Below are positions 5,211-53,302 of a stretch of 64,000 nt of DNA, one piece after another. Within the stretch, counting starts at the first letter, position 1. Every line of letters starts with the position of its first letter. The notes beneath the pieces were generated by a model that saw only the letters and a program-made list of their open reading frames with translations, was not told the DNA's origin and searched no databases. A program made the position numbers and the translations under genes. The stretch comes from Deltaproteobacteria bacterium GWA2_38_16 (GTDB lineage Bacteria > Bdellovibrionota > JACOXK01 > 2-02-FULL-40-11), in assembly GCA_001797335.1 (NCBI GenBank), contig MGPE01000005.1, forward strand, positions 153,013 to 217,012. The letters run 5' to 3'.

Positions 5211-5265
5211 GATTTAGAATCCTTGACTTTGCTATAGCATAGTTAATTTTTTTTATGCAATATAT

Positions 5266-33317: not shown

Positions 33318-33394
33318 GGGACCGTAGTTCAGCTGGTTAGAACGCCTGCCTGTCACGCAGGAGGTCGCGAGTTCGAGTCTCGTCGGTCCCGCCA
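33318..33394 (+). tRNA. tRNA-Asp (anticodon GTC)
   Basis: Acceptor GGGACCG/CGGTCCC, anticodon loop CTGTCAC, T-loop TTCGAGT, 3' CCA encoded. Confidence 0.85.
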
Positions 33395-33601: not shown

Positions 33602-35008
33602 ATGAAAAAAATATTTTTGATCATTATCGGTATCGGATGTTTTGGAAATCTTTTATCGTGTAAGTCATCTTTGCCTATTGAAAAAGCTGTTCTAACTTTT
33701 GCTCCAGAAGTGCCGCCGGTGATTACGCGGACATCTCCAGCAAAAGTGATTGTTGATCTAGAGGTTCAAGAAGTGGTCAATCAACTGGCCGATGGTGTTG
33801 AATATACGTTTTGGACATTTGGGGGGAAAGTTCCTGGGAAATTTATTCGAGTTCGAGAAGGAGATATCGTAGAGTTTCATTTGGCCAACCATCCTGCCAA
33901 TAAGCTTCCTCATAATATTGATCTTCATGCAGTGACAGGGCCTGGTGGGGGCGCCACCAGTTCCTTTACAGCGCCTGGACATAAATCCCAATTTACATTT
34001 ACAGCGTTAAACGCGGGTCTCTATGTATATCACTGTGCCACGGCTCCTGTAGGGATGCATGTGGCTAATGGCATGTATGGGCTTATTTATGTGCAACCCA
34101 AAAAAGCGCTGCCTAAGGTGGATCGTGAATATTATGTTATGCAAGGAGATTTTTATACCAAGGGTGTTTTTAGTGAAAAAGGGCTTCAGCCCTTTTCCAT
34201 GGAAAAGGCTATCGATGAAAAACCAAGCTATGTGGTGTTTAATGGGGCGGTGAATTCATTGGTGGGGGATAATGCACTGAAAGCCAAAGTAGGAGAAACC
34301 ATTCGTTTATTTGTGGGAAATGGGGGGCCGAATTTGGTTTCGTCATTTCATGTTATTGGAGAAATTTTTGATAAAGTGTATCAAGAAGGAGGGACTTCCA
34401 CTGTTCAGGAAAATGTTCAAACTACTTTAGTTCCCGCTGGAGGATCAGCCATTGTTGAATTTAGGATGGATGTTCCTGGAACTTTTATTTTAGTTGATCA
34501 CAGTATCTTTAGAGCATTTAATAAAGGAGCTTTGGGAATGCTTAAAGCGGAAGGGCCAGAAAATAAAGTCATTTATTCTGGAAAAGAGGTGGATGAAAAT
34601 TATATTGAGAGCCAAGCACATCCCCAAGCAGGGTTAAAATCAGAACCGTCCCCTTTAAAAGCCGGGCGGAGTGGGGCTACTATTTTTGAAAATGTATGCG
34701 CCATGTGTCATCAACAAGAAGGACAAGGCCTTTCTGGCGTATTTCCTCCTTTGGCAAAATCAGACTATCTTTCTCATTTAGCCGTTAGAGATCGAGAGAA
34801 ATTAGTATCTATTATTCTAAAAGGGTTATCGGGAAAAATTACCGTGAATGGAAAAGAGTATAATAATGTGATGACGCCTGTTTCAGGACTTTCTGATGAA
34901 GAATTAGTAACCATCTTAAATTATATTATCAGTTCCTGGGGAAATTCTGGAAAACCATTTACTTTAGAGGAAGTGAAAAAAGCGAAAGAAAAAATTGAAT
35001 CGAGATGA
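33602..35008 (+). CDS. nirK: copper-containing nitrite reductase with C-terminal cytochrome c domain
   Basis: Cupredoxin ligand motifs (HNIDLHA; [16 protein letters not shown]); C-terminal heme motif CAMCH; likely start at ATG 33602 with AGGAGG RBS (ORF track starts 33524). Confidence 0.85.
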
Positions 35009-36150
35009 AAAAAAATATTTTCAGCCATTTTTTCTTGGCTGCTATTTTCATAGAGGGGGGAACATTTACCCCCTTCTATGGTTTGAATAAAGATCAAAAA
35101 AGTGTATCCGTAAAATCTTTTCGTATAGATGATGCTCCTGTAACCAAGCAGCAATTTTTTAATCATGTCTCTAAGCGGGGGAATGTGCCGGTAACCTATG
35201 TGTCGTGGGATGATGCACAAGCGTATTGCAAGGCTCGGGGAGGCAGACTCCCCACTGTTTTTGAGTGGGAATATGTAGGCAGTGCCAGTGAGACTCAAAA
35301 AGATGCTTCGAAGGATCCAAAATTTATTCAAAAACTTTTAGAGTGGTATTCAAAGCCCGTTGATGAAGCTAAAATTCCAGAGGTTAAGCAGGGAAAACCC
35401 AATGTTTGGGGAGTGTACGACATGCATGGAGTGGTGTGGGAATGGGTCTATGATTTTAATAGTAGCTTTGTCACCGGAGATAATCGTCAGGATAAAGATA
35501 AACTCAAAGATTTGTTTTGTGGAGCAGGAGGAGAAGGTGCTCAAGACCGAATTAATTACGCAGCCTTTATGCGATATGCATTGAGAAGTAGTTTAAAAGC
35601 ATCTTATAAACTTATGAATCTAGGATTTCGGTGTGCTTATGATGAAAAAAATCAGGACGAGAATATTCAAACGTCTCTTGATTTATCTCCCTATCGCTCT
35701 CATTTTGTGGTGATCACGATGACGTATACGAGCTGCCAATCGGCTTGTCCTTTGATTATAAAAAAATTAAAAACCATTTTAAAAGCATTAGGGGGAGATA
35801 TCCAAAATATTGAATTTGTGGTGGTGACGTTTGATCCAACTATTGACACAGCTTCTCATCTTTTAGAATACCAAAAAAAACAAGGTCTTGATTTTCAAAA
35901 TTGGCATTTTTTAAGCGGTTCCGAAGAAGAAACCCGAAAGATGTCTTTATTTTTAGATATTTCTTATCAAAAAGATGCTACGACGGGGCACTTTATGCAC
36001 AGCAATAAAATTATTCTTTTAAATCCTGAGGGTCAAAAGGTAGTAACCCTAGATGGTTTGGATTCTGATATTGAGCCACTTTTAAAAGCCATGGGTAAAA
36101 CACCCAAAGCTTCTTTTTTCAAAAAACTTAAAAATTATTTTACCTTTTAA
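35005..36150 (+). CDS. NirV-like FGE-sulfatase-domain protein fused to a Sco1/SenC copper chaperone domain
   Basis: N-terminal [38 protein letters not shown] (FGE/SUMF1-like); C-terminal [10 protein letters not shown] (Sco CxxxCP) and thioredoxin-like region; ATGA overlap with nirK. Confidence 0.7.
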
Positions 36151-36661: not shown

Positions 36662-37402
36662 ATGATCAATGTCATATTTTTGCCAGTTTTTTTCTTTGTG
36701 GCTGCTCTTATTTACTCAATGGTAGGGCATGCAGGTGCTTCAGCCTATTTGGCCATCATGGCTCTTTTTGGAATATCAACAGAGGTAATGAAACCCGTAG
36801 CCTTGGTTTTAAATATTTTAGTGGCAGCGATTGCCAGTTTTAAATTTTATCGATCAGGGCATTTTTCATGGTCTTTATTTTGGCCTTTTGCATTGACCTC
36901 CATTCCTTTTTCTTTTTTAGGAGGATTTTTAATACTGTCTCCTCTATTTTATAAGCCCATCGTTGGGATTATTCTCTTATATGCGGCGTATCATCTCTTT
37001 TTCTTTTCTGCGCTCTCCGCTTCTTTAGAAATAGCCCAACCCTTACGACGGTGGTTACTATTGTTTTTGGGATCAGGCATTGGATTTTTGTCTGGGTTAA
37101 TTGGGGTAGGGGGAGGGATTTTTTTAAGTCCCCTTCTTTTATGGAGGAGGTGGGCTACGGTTCGGCAAACAGCAGCGATATCTTCTCTTTTTATTCTCGT
37201 GAATTCTATTTCCGGTTTAGGGGGGCATCTGTTTCGGGTGAATTCTTTGCCTTCTCAATTGCCGCTGTGGTTAGTGAGCGTTGCTCTGGGAGGATGGATA
37301 GGAGCAGAATATGGAAGCCGTCATCTGTCCCCCCTTTTTTTAAAGCGATGTTTGGCTTTGGTTTTATTAATAGCAGGACTTAAATGCCTCTTTTTTGTCT
37401 AA
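36662..37402 (+). CDS. TauE/SafE-family anion permease
   Basis: Duplicated 4-TM units with glycine-rich GLIGVGGGIFLSPLL motif. Confidence 0.7.
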   Translation: MINVIFLPVFFFVAALIYSMVGHAGASAYLAIMALFGISTEVMKPVALVLNILVAAIASFKFYRSGHFSWSLFWPFALTSIPFSFLGGFLILSPLFYKPIVGIILLYAAYHLFFFSALSASLEIAQPLRRWLLLFLGSGIGFLSGLIGVGGGIFLSPLLLWRRWATVRQTAAISSLFILVNSISGLGGHLFRVNSLPSQLPLWLVSVALGGWIGAEYGSRHLSPLFLKRCLALVLLIAGLKCLFFV

Positions 37403-37435: not shown

Positions 37436-40400
37436 TTGTGTAAATCTGCCACTTTAAGGCTTAAAAAATATGGAGGAAATATGACATATATCAGCCGAAG
37501 AAAGTTTTTAAAAGGTTTGGGGGCAGTAGGGACGTTATTAACCTCAGAAACTGTCTTTGGATCTCCTCTTCGATATTTTAAGCCTACCCATGTAGAAAAT
37601 CCCTTAGCATTTTATCCCAACCGGGATTGGGAAAAAGTATATCGAAATATTTTTAAACCTGATTCCACGTTTGTATTTTTGTGTGCTCCCAATGATACCC
37701 ATAACTGTCTTTTAAAAGCGTATGTCAAAAATAATGTGGCGGTTCGAATAGGTCCTACTTATGGATATGGAAAAGCACAAGATCTCTATGGGAATCAATC
37801 GTCTCATCGGTGGGATCCCAGGCTCTGTCAAAAAGGATTGGGATTAGTACGTAGGGTCTATGGGGATCGTCGTTTAAAATCCTCAATGATTCGACAAGGA
37901 TTTAAACAATGGGTAGAGGCTGGATTTCCCAGAGATCCCAAAACTGGAAAGCCGGATTTAAAATATTTTAATCGGGGACGAGATAAGTGGCTCAGAATTT
38001 CTTGGGATGAAGCATTTCAATTATCTGCCAAAGCTTTTTATAATATTGCACAAACCTATTCAGGCAAAGAAGGAGAAAAACGTTTAAAACTTCAAGGTTA
38101 TGATTCTGCGATGATTGAAGCGTTAGAAGGAGCAGGAACACAAACAATTAAAATCAGAGGGGGAATGGCATTTTTAGGATCTACACGAATTTTTGGAATG
38201 TATCGATTTGCCAATATGCTTGCGCTTTTAGATAGCAAAATTCGAGGAGTTGGGCCAGATCACGCCGTAGGAGCCAGAGGGTGGGATAGTTATAGTTGGC
38301 ATACAGATCTTCCACCAGGGCATCCCATGGTGACGGGTACTCAAACCAATGATTTTGATTTATTTGCCGTAGAACATTCAAAGCTTGCTATTGCCTGGGG
38401 GATGAATTGGATTACGACAAAAATGCCAGATTCCCATTGGTTGACGGAAGCCAGGCTCAAGGGAACTAAAACCGTGTCCATCACGGTTGAATACAGTGCA
38501 ACGGCTTCTAAAACCGATGACGTGATTGTTATTCGTCCAGGAACAGATCCAGCCTTTGCATTGGGATTGGCCCAAGTGATTATATCTGAAAAACTCTATG
38601 ATTTGGAGTTTGTATCCAAAAATACGGATCTTCCTTTTCTTATTCGATTAGATACCTTGGAGCCTCTTCGTCCCCAAGATATTATTCCGGGATATGTAGA
38701 GCCTCCTTTAAAAAATATTGTCTTTCTTAAAAAAGGAGAAAAACCCCCGGCAACCTCTACCCATCGCATTCAATATGCCACGGAAGAAATGAAGGATTCT
38801 TTTAAACCGTTTGTGATTGTTGATCAAAAAACCAAAAAATTAACACCGGTGACGAGAGACTCGTTCAGATCGGCAGATTTGTTTTCCAGTCGAACGGTGA
38901 AACTTTTAAATGGGAAGGAAATAAAAGTACAAACCGTGTTTGGGTTAATGAGAGACTATGTAAATCAAAATTTTACGCCTAAACAAACCGAACTTATTAC
39001 TGGTGCTCCTGAAAAAGCAATTATCTTATTAGCCAAACAAATTGCGGCTAATCCAGAAAAAACACTTTTTGTGACGGGTATGGGTCCAAACCAATTTTTT
39101 AATTCTGATTTAAAAGATCGGGCCATCTTTTTTGTGGCAGCCTTAACGCGAAATATTGGATTTCCAGGGGGTAATGTAGGAAGTTATGCTGGAAATTATA
39201 GAGCAGCATTGATTGGGGGAGAGCCCGTATTTGCTGCCGAAGATCCCTTTCATGTGCAACTCGATCCCAAAGGTAAGGTCATTGTTAAAAAATATACGCA
39301 TTATGAATCACTTCATTACTTTAATTATGGTGAGAGGCCGCTTAGGGGAGGGAAAACATTATTTACAGGGAAAAGTCATCTTCCAACTCCTACCAAAGCC
39401 ATGTGGCTCAATAATTCTAACTCTGTCATCGGAAATATTAAGTGGCATTTTGATGTGGTGAATAACACGCTTCCAAAGCTAGAGTTTATTGCATTTGCAG
39501 ATTGGTGGTGGACGGGTTCTTGTGAGTATGCTGATATTGTTTTTGGCGTCGACAGTTGGGCGGAGTTTAAAGTGCCTGATATGTGTGCTTCCTGTACCAA
39601 TCCTTTCCTTCATGTTTATCCCAGAACTCCTCTTCCCAGAATTTTTGATACGAAATCTGATATCGAAGTGATTGCAGGAGTATCAAAAGCGTTAGCCGAA
39701 GTAACCAATGATGCTCGAATGGTTGACATGTGGAAATTTGTTCATGAAGGGAATGTGCAAACATATCTTCAACGGATTATGGATCACTCTTTTACGCTCA
39801 AAGGGTATGATATTGATGATCTAGAGAAAAAAGCCCAAGAAGGAATTCCAACGCTCATGAATAATCGAACCTATCCTAGAATCTCTTCTTTTGAGCAGGC
39901 CACAGAAAAAGAACTTTGGTTTACGAAATCAGGTCGATTGGAATTTTATCGTCCTGAAAAAGAATTTATTGAGCATGGTGAAAATATGGTGGTGTATAGA
40001 GAACCTGTTGATTCAACGCCCTATGAACCCAATGTCATTGTAGCACATCCTCATGTGGCCATTCGTCCTAAAGGGCCCGAAGCACATGGGATGCAGTCGA
40101 GTGATCTTTCGTGTGAAAGTCGCCAAGTGCGAAATGTGATCAAAACGCCAGAAGAAGTAGTCAAAACAGAGCATCCTCTGCGTTCCAAAAAATTTACTCA
40201 CATTTATCATACGCCCAAATATCGACATGGAGCACACACGACTCCTGTTGATACTGATTTTACGGGAGTATGGTTTGGCCCTTTTGGTGATATTTATCGG
40301 CACGACAAACGTCAAGCCTCCGTGACCGAAGGATATGTAGATATAAATCCTTTAGATGCCAAAGAACTGGGGATTGAAGATGGGGATTATGTGCATATAG

Positions 40401-40924
40401 ATGCTGATCCCCAAGATCGTCCTTATAGAGGATGGAAAAAAGGGACTGAGTCTTATCATGTGGGGAGACTCCTTCTCAGGGCTCGTTATTATCCAGGGAC
40501 TCCCAGGGGAGTAGCTCGGACTTGGCACAATATGTATGGAGCTACTTTTGGAAGTGTGAAAGCTCATGAAACCCGGCCCGATGGACTCGCTAAAAATCCA
40601 GAGACAAATTACCAATCCATGTATCGCTATGGCAGTCATCAAAGTGCCACCCGGGCATGGCTACGGCCAACACTTATGACAGAAACATTGGTGAGAAAAG
40701 AAATGTTTGGAAATCAAATGGGCAAAGGATTTGCTGCAGATATTCATTGTCCCGTCGGAGCGCCTCGGGAAGCGTTTGTTAAAATTTCTAAAGCTGAGAA
40801 CGGGGGATTGGGAGGAAAAGGAAAGTGGGGGCCGGCACAGCTTGGATTTCGTCCCACCTATGAAAATGTAGCGATGAAGGAATATCTTAAAGGAAAATTT
40901 ATGAAACGAAAGAAGGAGATGTAA
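37436..40924 (+). CDS. Tat-exported molybdopterin oxidoreductase alpha subunit, type II DMSO reductase family (nitrite oxidoreductase NxrA-like / periplasmic NarG-like)
   Basis: Twin-arginine signal SRRKFLKG (probable start at Met16, about 37481); FS0 motif C-x3-D-x3-C...C followed by YVKNN (cf. NarG H-x3-C-x3-C..YVKNG); about 1150 aa. Confidence 0.8.
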
Positions 40925-40927: not shown

Positions 40928-42058
40928 ATGGCAACAGTAAAAAATTGGCAACTGGATCGCCAAATGGATTATCCCTATGAAGAGCACCGACCTAAAAAAC
41001 AATGGGCCATTGTTTTTGATTTAAATAAATGCATTGGATGTCAAACCTGTTCCTTGGCCTGTAAAACCACTTGGACCAGTGGCAAAGGCCAAGAATATAT
41101 GTTTTGGAATAATGTGGAAACAAAACCTTGGGGCAGCTATCCCCTGGCGTGGGATGTCCGAGTACTTGAAAAATTGGGATATCAACACTGGGATAAAAAT
41201 AAACCCTATTCCGGAAAAACCGTTTTTGAAGCTGCTGATCCAGCAGAAAAAGCGGTTCATTTTAATCCTCAAGATGAAGATTGGATGTATCCAAACCGAG
41301 GAGAAGATGATTGTACAGGAAATGTCTCGGGTGGAAAATATTTGACATTACCCCACGACAATTGGTTTTTTTATCTTCCCAGAACCTGTGCACATTGTAC
41401 CTATCCTGCCTGTTTAGCAGCCTGCCCCAGAAAAGCGATTTATAAACGAGAAGAAGATGGTATTGTTCTGATCGATCAATCACGATGCAAAGGATACCAA
41501 GAATGTGTCAGGGCCTGTCCCTATAAAAAGTCTATGTATAATCCCTATACCCGAGTGAGTGAAAAATGTGTGGGGTGTTATCCGGCGGTAGAAGAGGGAA
41601 AGCAACCCATGTGTGTTCAAAATTGCATTGGGAAAATTCGTATTATGGGATTTATTAATCCTCCCTGGAATGCCAGAGAAGATAATCCTGTTGATTATCT
41701 GGTTCACAAAAAAGAATTAGCACTCCCGTATTATCCTCAGTTGGGACTTGAGCCGAATATTTATTATGTTCCTCCCATTCATGCCAATCGGGAGTATTTA
41801 ATTCAGATGTTTGGCCCAAAAGTAGAGGAGGTCATTGAAAATTATAAAAAAATTAAAAATGATCCTATTACCCAGGGACTTTTAGTGCTGATGGGATCTA
41901 CGGATAATATTATTCATCGTTTTAAAGTTTCTGAGGGATCAGCATATGCTTTTGATGAAAAAGGGGATCAAATTGTGAGAGTTCCAGTCACAGAGCCTTT
42001 ATTTATTCGAACCCCTTGGGATGAAAAACTGGGCGTTATTCGAAATAATACGCCCTAA
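40928..42058 (+). CDS. iron-sulfur beta subunit of the type II DMSOR-family enzyme (NxrB/NarH-like)
   Basis: Four ferredoxin-type Cys clusters (CIGCQTCSLAC; CAHCTYPACLAACP; CKGYQECVRACP; CVGCY...C); no signal peptide; immediately follows the alpha gene. Confidence 0.8.
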   Translation: MATVKNWQLDRQMDYPYEEHRPKKQWAIVFDLNKCIGCQTCSLACKTTWTSGKGQEYMFWNNVETKPWGSYPLAWDVRVLEKLGYQHWDKNKPYSGKTVFEAADPAEKAVHFNPQDEDWMYPNRGEDDCTGNVSGGKYLTLPHDNWFFYLPRTCAHCTYPACLAACPRKAIYKREEDGIVLIDQSRCKGYQECVRACPYKKSMYNPYTRVSEKCVGCYPAVEEGKQPMCVQNCIGKIRIMGFINPPWNAREDNPVDYLVHKKELALPYYPQLGLEPNIYYVPPIHANREYLIQMFGPKVEEVIENYKKIKNDPITQGLLVLMGSTDNIIHRFKVSEGSAYAFDEKGDQIVRVPVTEPLFIRTPWDEKLGVIRNNTP

Positions 42059-42962
42059 GAAAGAAGGTGTGAGGGGAATGATGAAGAAAATTTATGCTTT
42101 AATGGTTGTAAGTTATCTTTTATGGGGCCAGGGACTTTGGGCCGAAGGACTTATTGCAAAATATGTTAAAGAGGATCTCTCTAAACTAAATCTTGAAGCA
42201 CTGTTTTGGAAAGAGGTTACTCCAGAGACCATTCAGCTGATAGCTCAGCCCATGGTGGCCCCACGTCCTCAAAAAACATTGACGGAAAAACTTTGGGTAC
42301 AAGTGGTTCATAATGGAGAGTGGATGGCGTTTCGATTTAAATGGAAAGACAAAGAGAAGAGCGAAGCAGGACCTTTGGGTAAATTTTCGGATGCAGTGGC
42401 CATTCAATTTCCAGTGAAAGAAAAAGAAGTGCCCCCGATTTTTATGGGAGCCAAGGATAGCCCCGTTCATATTTTGCATTGGAGAGCACAGTATCAAAAA
42501 GACAAAGAAAAAGGATTCCAAACGATGAAAGATATTTATCCCAATATGAATATGGATATGTATCCTTTAGAATTTGCCAATCAATATTCTCATGATGAGA
42601 TGTTGAAAAAAATCACTGAGGAACAAAGAGAAGTGTTTGTGTCTGGAAAATCTGCTGGAAACCCTCAATCATTTCAAAAAATAAAAGGGGTGGATGAGAT
42701 GATGGCCGAAGGTTTTGGTTCCAGTTCTGTCATTGAAAATACGAGAGCAGAAGCTCAGGGGATATGGCAAAAAAAAGGAAAAGAAGGAGAATGGGTAGTG
42801 CAAATTTCTCGGCCCTTAGCTTTAGAAGGGGGATCTATCTTGAAAGCAGGGCAAAAAAGTTTTATGGCCTTTGCTGTGTGGCAGGGCGGAGAAGGGGAAG
42901 TGGGATGTCGAAAATCTGTGACGATGACCTGGGTACCCTTAATAATTGAGGATAAAAAATGA
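42021..42962 (+). CDS. periplasmic gamma subunit (heme b, EbdC/NxrC-like)
   Basis: Sec signal MMKKIYALMVVSYLLWGQGLWAEG (probable start at internal Met about 42078); position and size fit a gamma subunit. Confidence 0.6.
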   Translation: MKNWALFEIIRPKKEGVRGMMKKIYALMVVSYLLWGQGLWAEGLIAKYVKEDLSKLNLEALFWKEVTPETIQLIAQPMVAPRPQKTLTEKLWVQVVHNGEWMAFRFKWKDKEKSEAGPLGKFSDAVAIQFPVKEKEVPPIFMGAKDSPVHILHWRAQYQKDKEKGFQTMKDIYPNMNMDMYPLEFANQYSHDEMLKKITEEQREVFVSGKSAGNPQSFQKIKGVDEMMAEGFGSSSVIENTRAEAQGIWQKKGKEGEWVVQISRPLALEGGSILKAGQKSFMAFAVWQGGEGEVGCRKSVTMTWVPLIIEDKK

Positions 42963-43624
42963 TGCCTAAACCTACGGATTTTATCGTTGCTTCTTTTTTG
43001 ACCGCATATCCAGATAACTATTTTTGCGATAGCTTAAAGGACATCTTAAATTGTCAAAAACCCAAAGGTATTGATTCTTTCTATTTGGAGCTGAAATCTT
43101 ATATAGAAACACCTCAAAAACTAAATAATTTGCGTTCTGATTATATTGATATTTTTGATCATGGAAAAGAAATCAACTCTCCGTATGAAACGTCTTATGG
43201 GCCTTATAAGGGGATGAATAAGACCATCGATCTTTCAGATTTGATGGGATTTTACAAAGCGTTTGGATTTGAATTGGGAGTGGATGATAAAAGGCGAGAT
43301 ATGGCAGATCATGTTTCTGTTGAGCTTGAATTTTATGCGCTGTTGCTCATGAAAGAAGCCTATTTGAAAAAACACAATGATAAAGAAGGAACTGAAATTG
43401 TTTTAGATGCGTGTAAGAAATTTTTAAAAGATCATTTAGGAAGATTTATTTCAGCTATTGGCAATAGGCCCGCTGTTTTACAACATTCTTTTTATTCGAA
43501 AGTATTTGAGTGGAGTGCTGTTCTTGTTGCCGAAGAATGCAAAAGATTAAATGTTACGCCTACGCCTTTGTCTTACGATTCTCTGATATCCGAATCTGAA
43601 GATTTTAACTGTCGTTTTAAATAA
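42959..43624 (+). CDS. TorD/NarJ-family redox enzyme maturation chaperone
   Basis: 221-aa cytoplasmic protein, fourth gene of the operon; DHVSVELEFYALL resembles TorD/NarJ-family helices. Confidence 0.55.
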   Translation: MMPKPTDFIVASFLTAYPDNYFCDSLKDILNCQKPKGIDSFYLELKSYIETPQKLNNLRSDYIDIFDHGKEINSPYETSYGPYKGMNKTIDLSDLMGFYKAFGFELGVDDKRRDMADHVSVELEFYALLLMKEAYLKKHNDKEGTEIVLDACKKFLKDHLGRFISAIGNRPAVLQHSFYSKVFEWSAVLVAEECKRLNVTPTPLSYDSLISESEDFNCRFK

Positions 43625-47768: not shown

Positions 47769-48958
47769 TTATCAGCAGTGTCGTTAATGCCTGATCCCTT
47801 GGTATAATTAATATCGTATCCTAATTTGAGGAGCATATTATCAGAGCATCGATATCCCCCACCAAAAGAATATCGGGAGTAAACGTTGGCCGTAACACTA
47901 TTTAAAGAAGCGGTGGTAGAAGCCCCTCTTAGTTTAATGGTACTAACGCGACCGGCCAGATAAAAATGAGACAAGACGTTCCATACATCCGGTAAATTCC
48001 ATAATGATTCTACAAAACCAAAATGAGCTTGTCTTTTTTGAGCATTCCCGCCGGTAGATCCATCTTTAAAAGCACCCAAAGAAAATCTAAAAAATGCCTG
48101 GCTATCAGAATATGCAGGAGGATTTAAAGGTTTTTTGCCTTTGCCTAAATCATATCTAAAATCTATTTCTGCCACCTGCCTTGTCCAATTTGTTGCACCG
48201 CTAGCAGGAGCTGTAATTCCTGCAATAGACATGTCTGCTGAAGATGCTTTTAATTTTCCAGAATGGTAGTAACTGGTGCTGATAAAGAGAGGATCTATCG
48301 GAGTGTAAAATAATCTTCCTAAAAAAGATTTTCCTTGGCCAGAATCCGATCCTACAACACTATTTCCATTTCCGACGGCTACAACCCATATTTTCCCTGA
48401 TAGCTCTATCCCCTCATCGGTGACGCCTACGTTTGCAGCTGAGTTAGAAGGAAGGATGCCTTCAACGACGTTATTGGTTTGGGTTTCTTCTCCAAAGGGC
48501 TGTTTAAATCTTCCCAGTCTGCCGCTTACATTAAACCACGTATTTCTTAAAGCGGGAATAAAATCTTTGGCTTGTAAAAATAAATAATCGACTAAAGGAG
48601 TGTTGTTCCCCCCATTATTTAAATTAAATCGAAAAGTAGCAGAATTGAAATCATCTGCCTGGAACATAAACACCAATTTTGCTTCAGGTACTTCAAAAGA
48701 ACCACTTCTAAAGCTAGAGGTTTGTCCTTGGGAATTATAAAAAGCACTTGCAGCTCTTCCGCTGAGCTTTAATTTAGAAAGCAGATTTGAAAGATCAACT
48801 TTGGGAGATTCTTCCCCATAGGCAAATGGGGATATGAATAAAGAAATTAAAATAATTGTTATGATGGAGTGTGGCTTCATAGAGTAATCCTTTCTTCTTT
48901 CCAGATGGGAGCTTGTTTTTTTAATTCGGCAATGACGTATTCGCAGGCTTTGAAACAC
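47735..48958 (-). CDS. outer-membrane beta-barrel porin-like protein
   Basis: Signal peptide MKPHSIITIILISLFISPFAYG (likely true start about 48880); alternating amphipathic strands; C-terminal SLRF with terminal Phe. Confidence 0.55.
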   Translation of the reverse strand: MFQSLRIRHCRIKKTSSHLERRKDYSMKPHSIITIILISLFISPFAYGEESPKVDLSNLLSKLKLSGRAASAFYNSQGQTSSFRSGSFEVPEAKLVFMFQADDFNSATFRFNLNNGGNNTPLVDYLFLQAKDFIPALRNTWFNVSGRLGRFKQPFGEETQTNNVVEGILPSNSAANVGVTDEGIELSGKIWVVAVGNGNSVVGSDSGQGKSFLGRLFYTPIDPLFISTSYYHSGKLKASSADMSIAGITAPASGATNWTRQVAEIDFRYDLGKGKKPLNPPAYSDSQAFFRFSLGAFKDGSTGGNAQKRQAHFGFVESLWNLPDVWNVLSHFYLAGRVSTIKLRGASTTASLNSVTANVYSRYSFGGGYRCSDNMLLKLGYDINYTKGSGINDTADNLLSLVASLRF

Positions 48959-49269
48959 TCTTTTCGATGTTCACCGGTAACGCCCATCCAAACCGCAATT
49001 TCTCCGAGTTGTAAGGTTCCTGTTCGATGATGAACATGAATGTCTAAAACAGAAAATTCTTTTTTGGCTTTATCAATTATTTTTTTTATTTCTTTAATCG
49101 CCATGGGCGTATAAGCTTCGTAATGGAGTTCTTTTACTTTTTTTCCTTTGTTCCATTGCCGAACCCAGCCTTCAAAGCTGACATAAGCGCCTGCCATGAT
49201 ATTTTTTCTTAATTTTTTAGAATGTATTGTGGGATTTAAAGGTTTGGTCCAAATTTTAACGATGGACAT
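48877..49269 (-). CDS. moaE: molybdopterin synthase catalytic subunit
   Basis: GAYVSFEGWVR...VHHRTGTLQLGE...APIWKEE. Confidence 0.85.
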   Translation of the reverse strand: MSIVKIWTKPLNPTIHSKKLRKNIMAGAYVSFEGWVRQWNKGKKVKELHYEAYTPMAIKEIKKIIDKAKKEFSVLDIHVHHRTGTLQLGEIAVWMGVTGEHRKECFKACEYVIAELKKQAPIWKEERITL

Positions 49270-49275
49270 AGTGTT

Positions 49276-49542
49276 TTATCCTCCTGCAACCGGAGGAATA
49301 AAACACACGGTATCCCCTTCTTTAAGAGAGGTATTAAAATGAGTATATGCTTCATTAATGGCAGCGGAAAGATAGGGAGTATCCAAAAAATGAGGATATT
49401 TTTTCTTAAGTTCCTGATGGAGTTCTAAAAGAGTGCTTTGATTGGGAAGGTCTATTTTTTCTTCTTTTTTTTGAGTGATGGTTTTTAAATGAGCAAAATA
49501 TAATACATTTACTTTCATGAGCTTTCGATTAACATGGGACAA
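49276..49542 (-). CDS. moaD: molybdopterin synthase sulfur-carrier subunit
   Basis: Small ubiquitin-like protein ending in Gly-Gly (PPVAGG); adjacent to moaE. Confidence 0.8.
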   Translation of the reverse strand: MSHVNRKLMKVNVLYFAHLKTITQKKEEKIDLPNQSTLLELHQELKKKYPHFLDTPYLSAAINEAYTHFNTSLKEGDTVCFIPPVAGG

Positions 49543-49554
49543 TTCTTTAAGAGT

Positions 49555-49568
49555 ATGACATAGATCAT
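49555..49568 (+). promoter_or_regulatory. FNR-like palindrome (ATGA-N6-TCAT) in the moaD / mobA-moaA divergent promoter
   Basis: ATGACATAGATCAT between divergent Moco genes; same architecture as the nirK boxes. Confidence 0.35.
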
Positions 49569-49611
49569 ATTTTTACCCAAAAGTCTATATAGAATACCTT
49601 TTTGTTTCAAG

Positions 49612-51165
49612 ATGAGCCATCATATAACATTAGCTATTTTAGTGGGGGGGGCTTCTCGTCGAATGGGGACTTCTCAAGACAAAGGGCTTTTATCTGTCCA
49701 TGGGGAGGCTTTAGTTTATCGTCTCATTAGAAAACTTTCTTTTTTATTTCAAGAAATCTTAATTATTTGTTCTTCGGAAACTCAAAAACAAAAATATGAT
49801 TTCGTGCTCGGAATGACACCTCAGATTATTGTGGATGAAAGTGGGAGTGATCGAGCGGCGTATTATGGACTGTGTGCAGCGCTTAAACAGAGTTCCACAG
49901 AAAAAGTGTTGGTGATTCCGGTAGATGCTCAAGGGGTGGATCCAGGTGTTATTAAAAAACTTCTATTGTCTCCCTCATTTCCTGTTGCCTATGAAAATAC
50001 ACCTTTCCCATCGGTGTGGCTCAAACAACATTTATCTTTTGTCATTCCGAGCACGAAGTGCGAGGAATCCCTAAGTATTTTAGATCTTTTGAAAAAACTT
50101 TCTACGACCTGGATACGTCCCACAGAGTGTGAAGACATACTTTTAAAAATGAATTTAAATACGAGAGAAGATGTTCGAAACTATTTTGGAGAGCCTCTGT
50201 GCGATTCTTGGGGGAGACAATTAAATTACTTAAGACTTTCTCTAACTGAATCGTGCAACATGGCATGCCAATATTGCTTGCCCAAAGGTTTTCATCAATC
50301 AACCCATGAACAGATGCTGACTCAAACCGCCCAGGTTATTTTAAAAGCGTTTCGAAAGTTAGGGTTTGAAAAAGTGCGTTTTACTGGCGGTGAGCCTACG
50401 CTTCATCCGGGACTTTTGTATCTTATTTCGGATGCTCGGTCCTTGGGATACGAAACTATTTCTCTCACTACCAATGGAAGTTTTATTCAAGATCTTACGT
50501 CTTTAATAGAGGCTGGGCTTACCCATATCAATATCAGTTTAGATACCCTAGATCCTACGACATTTCAAAAACTTACAGGGAGTCATTATCTATCTAAAAT
50601 TTTGGGTCTTATTGATGAGGCCTTAGAGAAGGGATTAAATGTAAAATTGAATACGGTTCTTCTTCGGGAGATTAATTTAAATCACATAGAACCATTACTC
50701 CATTGGGCGAAAGATCGCCCCTTAACCCTTCGGTTTATTGAACTTATGCCAATTCAAAATCACACAGAGTTTTTTAACAGAAATTTTGTTTCAAATACCG
50801 AAATTCAGTCTTTGGTTCGATCGTTGGGGTATGCGCCTATCTGTCATCCCCGACTTGATCGGGGATCCATGGAACCTTTAGGCCCCGCGGTTTTGTGGTC
50901 TCATCCAGAGTTTTTGGCCAAAGTAGGTTTTATCAGTCCTTGGTCGTGTAATTTCTGTGATCGCTGCAATCGATTGCGGGTGACTGCCAGAGCACATCTT
51001 CGTTTATGTTTATTTGGAAAAGAAGAGATAAAACTTCCGGCAGAACAAGGAGATGAAGTGGTGAGTCAATTTATTCGATCGGTTCTTCATCAAAAGCCCC
51101 TCTCGCATGATTTAGAAAAAGGGGATAGAGGAAGTTTAAGTTATTTTAAAGTAGTGGGAGGATAA
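49612..51165 (+). CDS. moaA: fused MobA-like molybdenum cofactor guanylyltransferase / MoaA GTP 3',8-cyclase (radical SAM)
   Basis: N-terminal AILVGGASRRMGTSQDKGLL (MobA motif); C-terminal CNMACQYC (CxxxCxxC) and auxiliary cluster cysteines CNFCDRCNR...C. Confidence 0.8.
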   Translation: MSHHITLAILVGGASRRMGTSQDKGLLSVHGEALVYRLIRKLSFLFQEILIICSSETQKQKYDFVLGMTPQIIVDESGSDRAAYYGLCAALKQSSTEKVLVIPVDAQGVDPGVIKKLLLSPSFPVAYENTPFPSVWLKQHLSFVIPSTKCEESLSILDLLKKLSTTWIRPTECEDILLKMNLNTREDVRNYFGEPLCDSWGRQLNYLRLSLTESCNMACQYCLPKGFHQSTHEQMLTQTAQVILKAFRKLGFEKVRFTGGEPTLHPGLLYLISDARSLGYETISLTTNGSFIQDLTSLIEAGLTHINISLDTLDPTTFQKLTGSHYLSKILGLIDEALEKGLNVKLNTVLLREINLNHIEPLLHWAKDRPLTLRFIELMPIQNHTEFFNRNFVSNTEIQSLVRSLGYAPICHPRLDRGSMEPLGPAVLWSHPEFLAKVGFISPWSCNFCDRCNRLRVTARAHLRLCLFGKEEIKLPAEQGDEVVSQFIRSVLHQKPLSHDLEKGDRGSLSYFKVVGG

Positions 51166-51168
51166 AAA

Positions 51169-51633
51169 ATGGGAGATTTTACTCATTTAAAAAAGGGAAA
51201 AGCCGTGATGGTGGATGTGACACAAAAAACTCCATCTGAGAGGATTGCAAAAAGTAAAGCTCATGTACAAACAGGATCTATCAATCTTAAAAAAGAATTA
51301 TCTCAAAAAGCACAGCAAGAATTGGCCTTAACTATTCGACTTTCGGCGATTCAAGCGGCTAAAAAAACATCTGAACTTATTCCTCTATGTCATCCTTTGT
51401 CTTTAAGTTTTGTAGAGTGTGAGGTGGAATTTAAGGAAAATAAAATTTTAATAATCTGTACGGCTAAAACAAAAAATACAACGGGGGTTGAAATGGAAGC
51501 TATGGTGGGAGCCTCGATCGGAGCATTAACGGCCTATGACATGATTAAGTCCAAGTGTCGTGATACATCGATTGAAAAAATTGAGTTAGTCTATAAAGAA
51601 GGAGGAAAATCAGGCGTATGGAAAAGAACATAA
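51169..51633 (+). CDS. moaC: cyclic pyranopterin monophosphate synthase
   Basis: 154 aa; conserved MoaC core (GVEMEAMVGASIGALTAYDM). Confidence 0.85.
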   Translation: MGDFTHLKKGKAVMVDVTQKTPSERIAKSKAHVQTGSINLKKELSQKAQQELALTIRLSAIQAAKKTSELIPLCHPLSLSFVECEVEFKENKILIICTAKTKNTTGVEMEAMVGASIGALTAYDMIKSKCRDTSIEKIELVYKEGGKSGVWKRT

Positions 51634-52118
51634 CATCCTATGTTATTGTGAGTTCTGATCGAGCATCCCAGGGAACCTATGAAGATAAGGCAGGCCCTGC
51701 TGCCCAAAATTGGCTGTGTAGCAATGGGTATAAAAATAAAGGAGTTGTCATTATCCCTGATAATCCAAAAATTCTTCGAGATAAACTTTTGGAGATATTA
51801 GAGACGGTAGACGTTGTGGTGGTGAGCGGAGGAACGGGTTTAGGCCCTCGGGATATTACTCCTCAAACATTACGTGATCTCTCAGACTATGAAATTCCAG
51901 GATTTGGAGAAAGATTAAGACAAGAAAGTTTAAAATATTCTTTGAATAGTTATTTATCCCGGTGTGGAGGGTATGTGAAAAATGATAAACTTATTTTAGC
52001 CCTGCCAGGAAATCCAAAAGCGGTGACAGAGCAACTTGATATTCTTTCAGAACTTCTTCCCAATGCGGTGTGTGCGCTTCGAGGGGAATGTAAACATAGG
52101 AATCGAACATCCTCATGA
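51618..52118 (+). CDS. mog: molybdopterin adenylyltransferase (MogA/MoaB family)
   Basis: VVVVSGGTGLGPRDITPQ motif. Confidence 0.8.
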   Translation: MEKNITSYVIVSSDRASQGTYEDKAGPAAQNWLCSNGYKNKGVVIIPDNPKILRDKLLEILETVDVVVVSGGTGLGPRDITPQTLRDLSDYEIPGFGERLRQESLKYSLNSYLSRCGGYVKNDKLILALPGNPKAVTEQLDILSELLPNAVCALRGECKHRNRTSS

Positions 52119-53302
52119 TTACCTACGAAGAAGCCTTAGCTTTATTTTCACGCCTTCCGTCGATAAAAGAGGTTACTACAGTACCTCTTCAAAAATCATT
52201 GGGATGTGTATTGGCCAAAGATCTTTTGGCTCCTTGTTCACTCCCACTTTTTAACAATAGTGCGATGGATGGGGTGGCGCTTCGATTATCAGATCTTCGA
52301 TCTGAAATCAGGATAGCAGGAACGAGATTGGCTCAAAGGGTGAAAGATTCATTAGATCATCCTCGCACGAAAGCCATTCGAATCATGACGGGAGCCAAAG
52401 TGCCTTCCTGGGCAGAACTGGTGGTTCCGATAGAGAAGATTGAAGGGATCAAAGAAAATGTTATTCGAGTGGCAGCCGGTTTATTTAATAAAGGAGAGAA
52501 CATTCGTTTTTCTGGAGAAGATTATCAAAAAGGAGAGCTTATTTTTAAAAAAGGGCACTTCTTAAATGCAGAGGCGTTGATGGTATTGGCCAATTTTGGA
52601 ATTCAAAAAGTAGAGGTATTTAAAAAGCCGGCTCTCTGGCTTTTAACGACGGGAAATGAAGTAAAGCGTGTAGGCTCCAAGCTTTTTGATGGGGAAATTT
52701 ATAATTCTTCTCAAATTTATTTAAAGACAAAAATAAGAGAATTAGAACTGCCTCTTAAAAAATATATTCATATGAAGGATCAAAAAGAAAAACTAAAGTC
52801 TTTTTTAAAAACATGGCTAAAGTCCAAAGGTCCCTCCCTTTTGGTGACAACCGGAGCCGTATCGATGGGAGATAAAGATGATTTTCCAAAACTGGCCCAG
52901 GAACTGGGGCTTCATCTTTATTTTCATAAAGTAGCTATTCGCCCTGGAAAGCCCGTTTTATTTTGCTCGGATGAAAAAGATCACTATTGGATTGGAGCGC
53001 CAGGGAATGCTATTGCCACAGCTGTTGCCTGGACATTTTTTGTAAGGCCTTTTTTACACAGCTGGGGGAAGTTTCCTTTGCCCCACACTACTCAAGTGAC
53101 TCTTGCCGAGGATTTTAAAAAGCCCCTTGGGATTAAAACTTTTTTTAGAGGATATTGTGATGGAGAAAAAGTTATCTTAGCCAAAGATCAAGGCTCTCAG
53201 CGGATGAAAGCATCTGCCACAAGTAATGTGTTTGTGGAGCTTCGCCAAGATCAGGAGGTGGTGATTCAGGGTAGCAAAGTCACCTGTACATGGTTATGTT
53301 AA
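52115..53302 (+). CDS. moeA: molybdopterin molybdenumtransferase
   Basis: 395 aa; MoeA N-terminal region (NSAMDGVA) and MoCF-biosynthesis domain (LLVTTGAVSMGDKD). Confidence 0.85.
   Translation: MITYEEALALFSRLPSIKEVTTVPLQKSLGCVLAKDLLAPCSLPLFNNSAMDGVALRLSDLRSEIRIAGTRLAQRVKDSLDHPRTKAIRIMTGAKVPSWAELVVPIEKIEGIKENVIRVAAGLFNKGENIRFSGEDYQKGELIFKKGHFLNAEALMVLANFGIQKVEVFKKPALWLLTTGNEVKRVGSKLFDGEIYNSSQIYLKTKIRELELPLKKYIHMKDQKEKLKSFLKTWLKSKGPSLLVTTGAVSMGDKDDFPKLAQELGLHLYFHKVAIRPGKPVLFCSDEKDHYWIGAPGNAIATAVAWTFFVRPFLHSWGKFPLPHTTQVTLAEDFKKPLGIKTFFRGYCDGEKVILAKDQGSQRMKASATSNVFVELRQDQEVVIQGSKVTCTWLC

What the first reader, a model, noticed from the sequence alone, without database searches (positions are those of the whole stretch)
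37682..37828. FS0 iron-sulfur motif with Asp in place of Cys (C-x3-D-x3-C...C) in the molybdoenzyme alpha subunit
Aligned on the conserved YVKN(G/N) segment, NarG has H-x3-C-x3-C; here it reads C83-APN-D87-THN-C91 with a fourth Cys about 40 residues later. From memory, an Asp-containing FS0 motif has been noted for periplasmic NxrA of Nitrospira and anammox bacteria, which would point to nitrite oxidoreductase. I cannot verify that recollection here.
Basis: partly seen in the sequence, partly recalled or inferred. Interest (0 to 1): 0.6.

Follow-up and report, generated by a model that had tools for sequence, protein, structure and literature searches.

The report
Aspartate-ligated iron-sulfur site in nitrate/nitrite enzyme
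The motif is real and is the already-described three-cysteine-plus-aspartate binding site for the first iron-sulfur cluster of periplasmic nitrite-oxidoreductase-type molybdoenzymes, but it marks that enzyme group as a whole, which also contains nitrate reductases, so it does not show that this groundwater bacterium oxidises nitrite.

Summary
Observation confirmed. Window 37682-37828 runs exactly from the codon of Cys68 to the codon of Cys116 of a 1147-aa Tat-exported molybdopterin subunit (37481-40924). The subunit reads C68-APN-D72-THN-C76...C116. These residues align without gaps to C67/D71/C75/C115 of Kuenenia NxrA (7B04, E=8e-275). In that crystal structure they hold the FS0 [4Fe-4S] cluster with 3Cys/1Asp ligation. 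Against E. coli NarG the register is C68=His49, D72=Cys53, C76=Cys57, C116=Cys92. No alternative register exists, because NxrA has only three Cys in its first 680 residues. All 199 full-length homologues keep the ligands.

Interpretation partly supported. The enzyme is only 39-41% identical to Kuenenia NxrA. It groups with the Nitrotoga/Hydrogenobacter-type sister clade, which holds a proven nitrite oxidoreductase and a proven periplasmic nitrate reductase. All of them carry the Asp, so the Asp marks the periplasmic NXR/NAR superclade, not the reaction direction.

The host is a 2-Mb groundwater MAG, 'Deltaproteobacteria bacterium GWA2_38_16'. The nxrABCD cassette sits in an island with nirK, a full molybdenum-cofactor pathway and an FNR-like regulator. 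That context leans mildly towards nitrate respiration.

Novelty is low: a new member of a known kind.

The parts
37682..37828 (+). FS0 [4Fe-4S] binding motif of NxrA: C68-x3-D72-x3-C76-x39-C116, with substrate-side Asn71 next to the Asp
   Evidence: Direct reading. Gap-free alignment to Kuenenia C67/N70/D71/C75/C115 and to NarG H49/N52/C53/C57/C92. Invariant in 199 homologues.
37481..40924 (+). [quoted passage not shown]
   Evidence: PF00384. Best NCBIfam TIGR03479 DMSO_red_II_alp, below cutoff. Best PDB hit 7B04_B NxrA, E=8e-275 over the full length. Foldseek TM 0.74 to 7B04.
37481..37561 (+). Twin-arginine (Tat) signal peptide [27 protein letters not shown]
   Evidence: S-R-R-x-F-L-K motif read directly. 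Aligned to the Tat signal of Kuenenia NxrA. The cleavage site is inferred.
38306..38308 (+). Asp276, predicted molybdenum ligand, in Y271-x4-D276-x11-Q288-T289
   Evidence: Aligns to Kuenenia Asp275, the Mo ligand. Invariant in 199 homologues and all outgroups.
40928..42058 (+). nxrB/narH-like iron-sulfur subunit, 376 aa (FS1-FS4)
   Evidence: PF13247, TIGR03478. Best PDB hit 7B04_A NxrB, E=3.5e-113. All 15 Cys of the 4+4+3+2+2 pattern align Cys-to-Cys.
42078..42962 (+). nxrC-like haem b subunit (EB_dh fold), 294 aa from MMKKIY, Sec-type signal, no membrane anchor
   Evidence: PF09459, TIGR03477. Hits EbdC and Kuenenia NxrC. Met (FMGAKD) and Lys (GCRKS) align with the Met/Lys haem ligands. Start and signal.
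42959..43624 (+). nxrD: NarJ/TorD-type assembly chaperone
   Evidence: PF02613, TIGR03482. Conserved as the fourth gene in 71 of 80 related loci.
36662..37402 (+). TauE/SafE-family anion permease directly upstream of nxrA. Role unknown; not conserved next to nxrA elsewhere.
   Evidence: PF01925. Found near the cassette in only 2 of 80 related loci.
33602..35008 (+). nirK: copper nitrite reductase (NO-forming) fused to a C-terminal cytochrome c; lipoprotein signal
   Evidence: TIGR02376, 354 bits, above the 296 cutoff; PF00034. Sequence features.
35005..36150 (+). FGE-sulfatase (NirV-like) domain fused to SCO1/SenC copper chaperone domain
   Evidence: PF03781 + PF02630. The NirV analogy is from my own knowledge.
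48877..54414 (.). Molybdenum-cofactor pathway: moaE, moaD (minus strand), mobA-moaA fusion, moaC, mog/moaB, moeA, moeB (plus strand)
   Evidence: Pfam hits. moaA, moaC/mog and moeA also follow nxrD in 13-30 related loci.
54954..55652 (+). Crp/Fnr-family regulator with FNR-like cysteines (C16-x2-C19-x8-C28, C118)
   Evidence: PF00027 + PF13545. Sequence. The comparison with E. coli FNR cysteines is from memory.

Best explanation
C68, D72, C76 and C116 are the four ligands of FS0. FS0 is the [4Fe-4S] cluster about 7 A from the proximal pterin, and it passes electrons one at a time between the Mo-bis-MGD active site and FS1 of the beta subunit. Active-site residues are Asp276 on Mo and Asn71 facing the substrate. 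The carboxylate of Asp72 takes the place of NarG Cys53, and Cys68 takes the place of NarG His49. This gives the 3Cys/1Asp ligation seen in the Kuenenia NXR crystal structure, which is thought to tune the cluster potential. The protein is the Tat-exported catalytic subunit of a soluble periplasmic NxrABC-type nitrate/nitrite oxidoreductase. It has a Met/Lys-ligated haem b subunit and a NarJ-like chaperone. It belongs to the Nitrotoga/Hydrogenobacter-type half of the Asp-type superclade. The Asp is a signature of that whole superclade and says nothing about direction. From context (nirK-cytochrome c next door, a cofactor pathway, an FNR-like regulator, a non-nitrifier host) I infer that the enzyme most likely serves as a periplasmic nitrate reductase. 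It would feed nitrite to NirK under low oxygen, with electrons arriving through c-type cytochromes, while remaining intrinsically reversible. Shown: the motif, its homology, its invariance and the operon. Inferred: actual Asp-Fe bonding in this protein, the substrate, and the direction. My split for direction is about 55:25 for reduction against oxidation as the main physiological role.
For: Full-length homology to Kuenenia NxrA with a gap-free match of all four ligands, Asn70 and Asp275. Crystallographic 3Cys/1Asp at those positions. NarG register. No other Cys within 680 residues. Invariance in 199 homologues. The Asp type forms a single superclade in an NJ tree, with all-Cys and His types outside. 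NxrB keeps 15/15 cluster cysteines and NxrC keeps the Met/Lys haem ligands. The nxrA-B-C-chaperone order is conserved in 71-77 of 80 loci, the same order as the Nitrotoga locus. N-terminal identity is 57% to a Nitrotoga-like sequence and 44% to Kuenenia. nirK scores above the curated cutoff. Moco genes and an FNR-like regulator are present. Literature: the sister clade contains a characterised periplasmic NAR, and direction cannot be told from sequence.
Against: There is no biochemical or spectroscopic data for this protein or any close relative. The template structure is at 3.0 A and only 39-41% identical. The AlphaFold model is unusable in residues 1-132 (pLDDT below 50), so ligand geometry could not be checked. 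Placement next to Nitrotoga rests on a 135-aa fragment and a frameshifted MAG locus, plus a distance tree without bootstrap. Direction evidence is weak: nirK is adjacent in only 1 other of 80 loci, true nitrite oxidisers also carry nirK, and FNR-like cysteines are a pattern match only. The rest of the 2-Mb genome (oxidases, CO2 fixation, nor/nos) was not seen.
Confidence: 0.8

Rival explanations
1. One reading: the enzyme is a working nitrite oxidoreductase and the host is an unrecognised nitrite oxidiser. Nitrite is oxidised in the periplasm, and electrons pass via NxrB, NxrC haem b and c-type cytochromes to a terminal oxidase.
For: Same ligand set, Tat export, soluble haem b subunit and gene order as the proven NXR of Nitrotoga. 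A Met/Lys haem b is a high-potential centre suited to accept electrons from nitrite. All studied NXRs of this type are reversible. Some authors propose nitrite oxidation for such orphan enzymes.
Against: The Asp and every other feature are equally present in nitrate-reducing members. No CO2-fixation or oxidase genes are linked to the cassette in the window, its flanks or 80 related loci. The neighbours are nirK and an FNR-like regulator. Carriers are mostly Bdellovibrionota, Myxococcota and similar heterotroph lineages.
Confidence: 0.2
2. Asp72 is not a ligand. FS0 is a [3Fe-4S] cluster held by the three cysteines, or the fourth ligand is the neighbouring His74.
For: Only three Cys are available. 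His74 is invariant and lies between D72 and C76. From general knowledge, Asp-ligated clusters such as Pyrococcus ferredoxin lose the fourth iron easily. The AlphaFold model gives no geometric support.
Against: In the homologous crystal structure the cluster is a [4Fe-4S] bound by Asp71, with the same D-T-H-x-C context. Asp72 occupies exactly the column of NarG ligand Cys53. It is invariant in 199 sequences, and when it changes in relatives it changes to Cys or Glu, both metal ligands.
Confidence: 0.06
3. The enzyme acts on another substrate (chlorate, perchlorate, selenate, a hydrocarbon or DMS), like other soluble periplasmic type II DMSO-reductase-family enzymes with the same ABC+D gene order.
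For: The operon architecture and haem b subunit are those of Ebd/Ser/Clr/Pcr-type enzymes. NCBIfam places all four subunits only in the generic 'DMSO reductase type II' subfamilies, below cutoff. PcrA and EbdA are the next-best structures.
Against: Identity to PcrA and EbdA is 18-19%, against 40% to NxrA. The substrate-coordinating Asn (Ile in EbdA) and the NXR-type Lys913 are kept. nirK, which consumes the product nitrite, is adjacent.
Confidence: 0.06

Closest known systems
Kuenenia stuttgartiensis NXR, NxrA subunit (PDB 7B04; Chicano et al. 2021)
   Same: Full-length homologue (E=8e-275). Identical FS0 ligand pattern C-x3-D-x3-C-x39-C, Asn next to the Asp, Asp Mo ligand, Lys913/Lys917, Tat signal. 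NxrB has the same 15 Cys, and the soluble NxrC has Met/Lys haem b.
   Different: Only 39-41% identical; it sits in the other half of the superclade. Thr313 and Met534 replace Asn312 and Glu527 near the active site. No NXR-T tubule subunit or anammox gene context was seen in the window.
Candidatus Nitrotoga fabula NXR (Kitzinger et al. 2018), the proven nitrite oxidoreductase of the 'sister clade'
   Same: Same nxrA-nxrB-nxrC-chaperone locus, Tat-exported NxrA, Sec-exported anchor-less NxrC. Identical [13 protein letters not shown] motif. 57% identity over the N-terminal 135 aa of Nitrotoga-like fragments. Thr at position 313.
   Different: Mo-site motif ends QT here and QM in Nitrotoga. Position 534 is Met here and Ala there. 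The host is not a Gallionellaceae nitrifier. Full-length comparison was not possible.
Periplasmic nitrate reductase of Hydrogenobacter thermophilus / Hydrogenobaculum NarG-like enzyme
   Same: Reported in the same sister clade and periplasmically oriented. The Hydrogenobaculum sequence shows N-D at the FS0 position and the YPNR(G/D)WEKVYR and [10 protein letters not shown] stretches also present here (machine-read alignment).
   Different: It is described as membrane-bound, whereas the window NxrC has no anchor. Sequence identity to the window protein was not measured because no clean sequence was available.
E. coli NarG FS0 (PDB 1Q16/1R27)
   Same: Same cluster position and same spacing of ligands. 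Asn52/Asn71 and the YVKNG anchor are conserved.
   Different: His49 and Cys53 in place of Cys68 and Asp72. Cytoplasmic, no Tat export to the periplasm, NarI membrane anchor. About 15% structural-alignment identity.
Orphan 'periplasmic Nxr-like' genes of non-nitrifier MAGs (e.g. Myxococcales PRO3, PMC9306079; Planctomycetota, PMC10732223)
   Same: L059 from the PRO3 MAG is 67% identical with the same four-gene cassette. These papers already place such genes with NOB/anammox NxrA.
   Different: Those reports do not examine FS0 and leave the function open. The window copy is linked to nirK, which is unusual in the clade.

Membership tests
Asp-type periplasmic NXR/NAR superclade of type II DMSO reductases (Nitrospira/Nitrospina/anammox plus the Nitrotoga/Hydrogenobacter sister clade) | FS0 motif C-x3-D-x3-C-xn-C (3Cys/1Asp) | tested here: met
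   C68/D72/C76/C116 align to Kuenenia C67/D71/C75/C115.
Asp-type periplasmic NXR/NAR superclade of type II DMSO reductases (Nitrospira/Nitrospina/anammox plus the Nitrotoga/Hydrogenobacter sister clade) | Twin-arginine signal on the alpha subunit (periplasmic orientation) | tested here: met
   SRRKFLKG at residues 5-12, aligned with the Kuenenia Tat signal.
Asp-type periplasmic NXR/NAR superclade of type II DMSO reductases (Nitrospira/Nitrospina/anammox plus the Nitrotoga/Hydrogenobacter sister clade) | Asp ligand to Mo in Y-x4-D-x11-Q(T/N/M), and substrate-side Asn | tested here: met
   Y271...D276...Q288-T289 and N71, invariant.
Asp-type periplasmic NXR/NAR superclade of type II DMSO reductases (Nitrospira/Nitrospina/anammox plus the Nitrotoga/Hydrogenobacter sister clade) | Beta subunit with three [4Fe-4S] and one [3Fe-4S] cluster; haem b gamma subunit; NarJ-like chaperone | tested here: met
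   15/15 Cys aligned with Kuenenia NxrB. EB_dh with Met/Lys ligands. PF02613.
Asp-type periplasmic NXR/NAR superclade of type II DMSO reductases (Nitrospira/Nitrospina/anammox plus the Nitrotoga/Hydrogenobacter sister clade) | Clusters with known members rather than with all-Cys or His-type relatives | tested here: met
   NJ tree on 930 columns and identity table. Distance method only, no support values.
Asp-type periplasmic NXR/NAR superclade of type II DMSO reductases (Nitrospira/Nitrospina/anammox plus the Nitrotoga/Hydrogenobacter sister clade) | Catalyses nitrite oxidation and/or nitrate reduction | not testable with these tools
   Needs enzyme assays.
Nitrospira/Nitrospina/anammox-type NXR in the strict sense | About 60% or more identity among members and monophyly with Kuenenia NxrA | tested here: not met
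   39-41% to Kuenenia NxrA, against about 60% for Nitrospira/Nitrospina. Falls in the other branch.
Nitrotoga-type sister clade (Kitzinger 2018) | nxrA-nxrB-nxrC-chaperone locus with an anchor-less, Sec-exported NxrC | tested here: met
Nitrotoga-type sister clade (Kitzinger 2018) | Closer to Nitrotoga NxrA than to Kuenenia/Nitrospira NxrA | tested here: inconclusive
   57% against 44% over the N-terminal region only. In-frame pieces of the frameshifted locus L087 give 43-49%. No intact full-length Nitrotoga sequence could be retrieved.
Functional nitrite oxidoreductase of a nitrite-oxidising bacterium | Host grows on or oxidises nitrite; enzyme coupled to a terminal oxidase, usually with CO2 fixation | not testable with these tools
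   Only 64 kb plus about 20 kb of a 2.0-Mb genome was seen. No oxidase or CO2-fixation genes are linked.
Cytoplasmic NarGHI-type respiratory nitrate reductase | H-x3-C-x3-C-xn-C FS0, no export signal, NarI dihaem membrane subunit | tested here: not met
   Cys and Asp in place of His and Cys. Tat signal present. The gamma subunit is EB_dh type, not NarI. TIGR01580 narG scores 156 bits against a cutoff of 1084.

The most novel reading that the evidence does not exclude
The cassette encodes a working nitrite oxidase. On this reading the 2-Mb groundwater 'Deltaproteobacteria' lineage is an unrecognised, possibly non-autotrophic, nitrite oxidiser, and so is the large set of Bdellovibrionota, Myxococcota, Sericytochromatia and Acidobacteriota MAGs carrying 57-78%-identical nxrABCD cassettes. 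A smaller novel point: the Asp72 ligand and Lys913 near the pterin change together across the family (Asp with Lys, Cys with His). This hints at a coupled tuning of FS0 and the pterin environment that has not been analysed.
Probability: 0.15. Interest if true: 0.7.

Novelty: new member of a known kind. Interest (0 to 1): 0.25.

Why it matters
As a structural feature it adds little. The 3Cys/1Asp FS0 site was predicted in 2010 and seen in a crystal structure in 2021, and this protein simply carries it.

Its practical value is as a caution for annotation. The Asp motif is a clean, invariant marker for the periplasmic NXR/NAR superclade, but it cannot be used to call nitrite oxidation. The marker distinguishes this superclade from all-Cys relatives in haloarchaea, Firmicutes and Melainabacteria, and from His-type NarG and EbdA.

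The clade to which this copy belongs is large and is spread across heterotrophic phyla common in groundwater, soil and wastewater. If any of these enzymes run oxidatively in nature, nitrification budgets and the list of nitrite oxidisers would need revision. If they are nitrate reductases, they are a widespread and under-annotated fourth route of nitrate respiration, currently labelled only 'molybdopterin oxidoreductase'.

Tried and rejected
1. Structural model of the FS0 site. AlphaFold2 on a 30-sequence alignment gave mean pLDDT 63.8, with residues 1-132 below 50. Only the global fold match to 7B04 was used.

2. Full-length reference NxrA sequences.
- The machine-read supplementary alignment of Chicano 2021 drops and garbles letters. 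I used it only to read the motif columns.
- A search with a 119-aa Nitrotoga fragment returned only short fragments.
- The Nitrotoga contig L086 ends inside the gene.
- The Nitrosomonadales locus L087 is riddled with frameshifts.
- Hence there is no full-length tree that includes Nitrotoga or Hydrogenobacter.

3. Lucker 2010 (PMC2922143) is not held, so the 'noted previously' statement is cited through Chicano 2021.

4. Active-site neighbours listed in a 2025 review as NXR/NAR differences were tested as direction markers and rejected. Thr313 is shared with both Nitrotoga-like NxrA and NarG. Position 534 is Met here, Ala in both of those, and Glu in Kuenenia.

5. Gene neighbourhood as a direction marker. 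Clustering the flanks of 80 loci found only Moco genes, a molybdate transporter, Crp/Fnr regulators, a few cytochromes c and two unknown upstream proteins. It found no oxidases, nor/nos or CO2 fixation.

6. Genomic-island test. Two tRNA genes precede nirK, but GC content does not differ from the surroundings, so recent transfer is not supported.

7. The per-genome trait table of Anantharaman 2016 was not among the stored supplements. Only genome statistics were found.

8. The genome-contig scan did not return the window's own genome; the best hit was 78% identical. Flanks beyond the window held housekeeping genes only.
Full report
**1. The observation**

The finding lies in a 1147-codon gene, window 37481-40924 (+). 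The mechanical ORF begins at a TTG at 37436, but the ATG at 37481 is preceded by GGAGG at the right distance.

- In ATG numbering the protein reads ...FVFL-C68-APN-D72-THN-C76-LLKAYVKNN...DPRL-C116-QKG.
- Positions 37682 and 37828 are exactly the first base of the Cys68 codon and the last base of the Cys116 codon.
- The N-terminus, [12 protein letters not shown], is a twin-arginine signal.

**2. What the motif corresponds to**

A phmmer search of all PDB sequences gives the Kuenenia stuttgartiensis nitrite oxidoreductase A subunit (7B04_B) as by far the best hit, E=8e-275 over residues 4-1142. Perchlorate reductase PcrA (1e-48), E. coli NarG (1e-39) and ethylbenzene dehydrogenase EbdA (1e-31) follow.

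- The motif region aligns without gaps. In a 211-sequence MAFFT alignment the window residues C68, N71, D72, C76, C116 and D276 fall on Kuenenia C67, N70, D71, C75, C115 and D275.
- Chicano et al. 2021 (PMC8387239) report from the 3.0-A crystal structure that FS0 lies about 7 A from the proximal pterin. [quoted passage not shown]
- The same paper states that NAR and EBDH have 3Cys/1His with the His at the C67 position, that Asp275 binds Mo, and that Asn70 faces the substrate.
- The N-terminal 159 residues searched alone align to E. coli NarG as C68/His49, N71/Asn52, D72/Cys53, C76/Cys57 and C116/Cys92. The engineered H49C mutant 3IR5 scores best among the NarG entries.

The protein has cysteines only at 68, 76 and 116 in its first 680 residues.

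**3. Conservation**

- All 120 database homologues of 69% identity or more carry C-[AS]PN-D-THN-C, apart from one with CGANDTHT.
- In 199 full-length homologues of 57-100% identity, drawn from these and from 80 genome loci, C68, N71, D72, C76, C116 and D276 are invariant.

Across more distant representatives the ligand set changes in an orderly way:

| Ligand pattern | Where found |
|---|---|
| C..ND...C | Window clade, Kuenenia, Nitrotoga-like fragments, and representatives from Gaiellaceae, SAR202 and Tectomicrobia |
| C..NC...C (all-Cys) | Representatives from Halorussus, Thermincola, Obscuribacterales and others at 32-36% identity |
| H..NC...C | NarG and one representative |
| C..PE...C (Glu, and no Asn) | One representative |

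A neighbour-joining tree on 930 columns puts all Asp-type enzymes in one superclade, with the all-Cys and His types outside. This is a distance tree without support values.

**4. Which enzyme it is**

The gene is followed by three further genes:

- nxrB (40928-42058) has Kuenenia NxrB as best PDB hit, E=3.5e-113. All 15 cluster cysteines align.
- The haem b subunit of the ethylbenzene-dehydrogenase fold starts at 42078 with a Sec-type signal and has no membrane anchor. Its Met and Lys align with the haem ligands of Kuenenia NxrC and EbdC.
- The fourth gene is a NarJ/TorD-type chaperone.

This A-B-C-D order is kept in 71-77 of 80 related loci. It is the order described for Ca. Nitrotoga fabula.

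The window protein is only 39% identical to Kuenenia NxrA by BLASTP, and 41% on trimmed columns. Chicano et al. give about 60% between Kuenenia and Nitrospira/Nitrospina, and about 40% between Kuenenia and Nitrotoga/Hydrogenobaculum.

- In the tree, Kuenenia groups with a Tectomicrobia representative and one other (57-61% identity to Kuenenia). The window clade groups with Gaiellaceae and SAR202 representatives.
- Over the N-terminal region the window protein is 57% identical to Nitrotoga-like fragments and 44% to Kuenenia. Kuenenia and Nitrotoga are 43% identical there.
- One of those fragments is labelled Ca. Nitrotoga. A related Nitrosomonadales locus carries the Y-x4-D-x11-QM signature that Kitzinger et al. 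report for Nitrotoga.

I therefore place the enzyme in the 'sister clade' of Kitzinger et al. 2018. According to that paper this clade contains the Nitrotoga NXR together with putative nitrate reductases of known nitrate reducers. It also holds the functionally characterised, periplasmically oriented nitrate reductase of Hydrogenobacter thermophilus. The placement is provisional because no intact full-length Nitrotoga or Hydrogenobacter sequence could be obtained.

**5. What the Asp does and does not tell**

The Asp is shared by anammox, Nitrospira, Nitrospina, Nitrotoga and Hydrogenobaculum sequences in the published alignment. Chicano et al. state that Asp or His ligation occurs in both NXRs and NARs depending on lineage. 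It therefore identifies the enzyme lineage, not the direction of catalysis.

Kop et al. 2024 and a study of a homologue 67% identical to the window protein (Myxococcales PRO3, my locus L059) both say that direction cannot be assigned from sequence.

I tested the residues that a 2025 review lists as NXR/NAR differences near the active site. These are Kuenenia N312/E527/K917 against NarG T259/A542/H1092. The window clade invariantly has T313/M534/K913. A Nitrotoga-like sequence has Thr and Ala at the first two positions, so they do not discriminate either. One regularity did emerge: every Asp-type sequence has Lys at position 913, and every Cys-type sequence has His.

**6. Host and context**

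The exact protein is in GenBank as 'molybdopterin oxidoreductase' of 'Deltaproteobacteria bacterium GWA2_38_16' and in a second MAG.

- The genome is a near-complete 2.0-Mb, 37.8% GC genome from Rifle aquifer groundwater. The window is 38.4% GC.
- Its Lon protease is closest to unclassified 'Deltaproteobacteria' MAGs, then to Anaeromyxobacter at about 68%.
- The nearest NxrA relatives in species-representative genomes are MAGs labelled Bdellovibrionota/Oligoflexia, Myxococcota, Sericytochromatia, Acidobacteriota and others. None is a recognised nitrifier.

Around the cassette the window carries the following genes:

- Two tRNA genes come first.
- nirK follows, with a lipoprotein signal and a C-terminal cytochrome c; TIGR02376 scores 354 bits, above cutoff.
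- Next come a NirV-like/SCO1 fusion, a small membrane protein and a TauE permease.
- nxrABCD itself follows.
- After a few unrelated genes there is a complete molybdenum-cofactor pathway.
- The last gene is a Crp/Fnr regulator with FNR-like cysteines.

GC content of this stretch is not distinctive. Moco genes also follow the cassette in many relatives, whereas nirK is adjacent in only one other locus. No oxidase, nor/nos or CO2-fixation genes are linked in the window, its immediate flanks or the related loci.

**7. Mechanism proposed**

Shown by homology: a Tat-exported NxrA-NxrB pair joins Sec-exported NxrC in the periplasm. Nitrate or nitrite binds at Mo (Asp276) next to Asn71. Electrons move between Mo-bis-MGD and FS0 (C68, D72, C76, C116), then along FS1-FS4 of NxrB to the Met/Lys haem b of NxrC.

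Inferred: the oxygen ligand from Asp72, directly bonded to the residue after the substrate-side Asn, tunes the FS0 potential, as suggested for Kuenenia. NxrC exchanges electrons with soluble or tethered c-type cytochromes such as the one fused to NirK. In this organism the enzyme mainly reduces nitrate, supplying nitrite to NirK under low oxygen. I give about 55% to nitrate reduction as the main role and about 25% to nitrite oxidation. The rest covers truly bidirectional use or another substrate.

**8. Limits**

- The AlphaFold2 model was poor: mean pLDDT 63.8, with the whole FS0 region below 50. It supports only the global fold match to 7B04 (TM 0.74).
- No experimental data exist for this clade.
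- The genome outside about 85 kb was not examined.

**9. Verdict**

The recalled link to periplasmic NxrA is correct and is documented by a crystal structure. The conclusion that the motif points to nitrite oxidoreductase is only half right, because the motif marks a superclade that also includes nitrate reductases, and this copy belongs to the mixed Nitrotoga/Hydrogenobacter-type branch. It is a new, uncharacterised member of a known kind, and interest is low to moderate.

Noticed in passing
window 38306-38308, 37694-37696 and codon 913 of nxrA (40217-40219): Across 199 close homologues and 12 distant representatives, the FS0 Asp (D72) always co-occurs with Lys at position 913 (Kuenenia Lys917). 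Relatives with Cys at the Asp position always have His there, as NarG has His1092. This is a possible coupled change of the FS0 ligand and the pterin environment.
   Followed up: partly
L009:1592-2386, L010:2131-3003, L011:4674-5531, L013:4869-5672, L031:4837-5649 and 38 further loci: In 43 of 80 related loci a protein of about 270 aa, Cys-rich and with no Pfam match, sits directly upstream of nxrA. Its conserved core is CDYWREAxDGLxMGxG...RH..xGHGD.xCxD. It is absent from the 64-kb window. It may be an unknown accessory or maturation factor of this clade.
   Followed up: partly
L010:3000-3398, L011:5528-5917, L013:5669-5980, L017:5534-5980: In 13 related loci a small protein (100-150 aa) with a Tat-like RR(D/E)FF signal and no family match lies between the Cys-rich protein and nxrA. 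It is also absent from the window.
   Followed up: partly
window 33602-35008 and 35005-36150: nirK is a three-way arrangement: lipoprotein signal, copper nitrite reductase and a C-terminal class I cytochrome c (CAMCH). The next gene fuses an FGE-sulfatase (NirV-like) domain to a SCO1/SenC copper chaperone domain.
   Followed up: partly
window 36140-36625 (-): A 161-aa four-helix membrane protein lies between the nirK genes and tauE. It has a weak hit to haem-copper oxidase subunit I (33 bits, just below the Pfam cutoff) and a Cys-rich tail, PCCSSC. Its function is unknown.
   Followed up: no
window 31944-32019 and 33318-33394: tRNA-Val and tRNA-Asp genes lie immediately upstream of nirK, with a 311-aa protein of no known family between them on the other strand. 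GC content of the nirK-nxr-Moco stretch is not different from the rest.
   Followed up: yes
window 2393-10664 (-): There is an unusual gene string: fused nuoCD, nuoE, nuoF, a short nuoG (499 aa) and a 2x[4Fe-4S] ferredoxin, followed directly by the two subunits of a 2-oxoacid:ferredoxin oxidoreductase. No nuoH or membrane subunits lie in between.
   Followed up: no
window 54954-55652: The Crp/Fnr regulator at the end of the Moco cluster has C16-x2-C19-x8-C28 and C118. This resembles the oxygen-sensing cluster cysteines of E. coli FNR, a comparison from memory. Crp/Fnr genes also flank the cassette in 4 related loci.
   Followed up: partly
protein P0134 (representative library): A 1104-aa relative (38% identity) has CADPEGHGC at the FS0 site. 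Glu replaces Asp and Pro replaces the substrate-side Asn. It also lacks the Tyr, Gln and Lys kept by all others, which suggests a different substrate.
   Followed up: no
window 46771-47746: A nucleotidyltransferase/HEPN pair (a toxin-antitoxin-like module) lies between the nxr cassette and the Moco genes.
   Followed up: no
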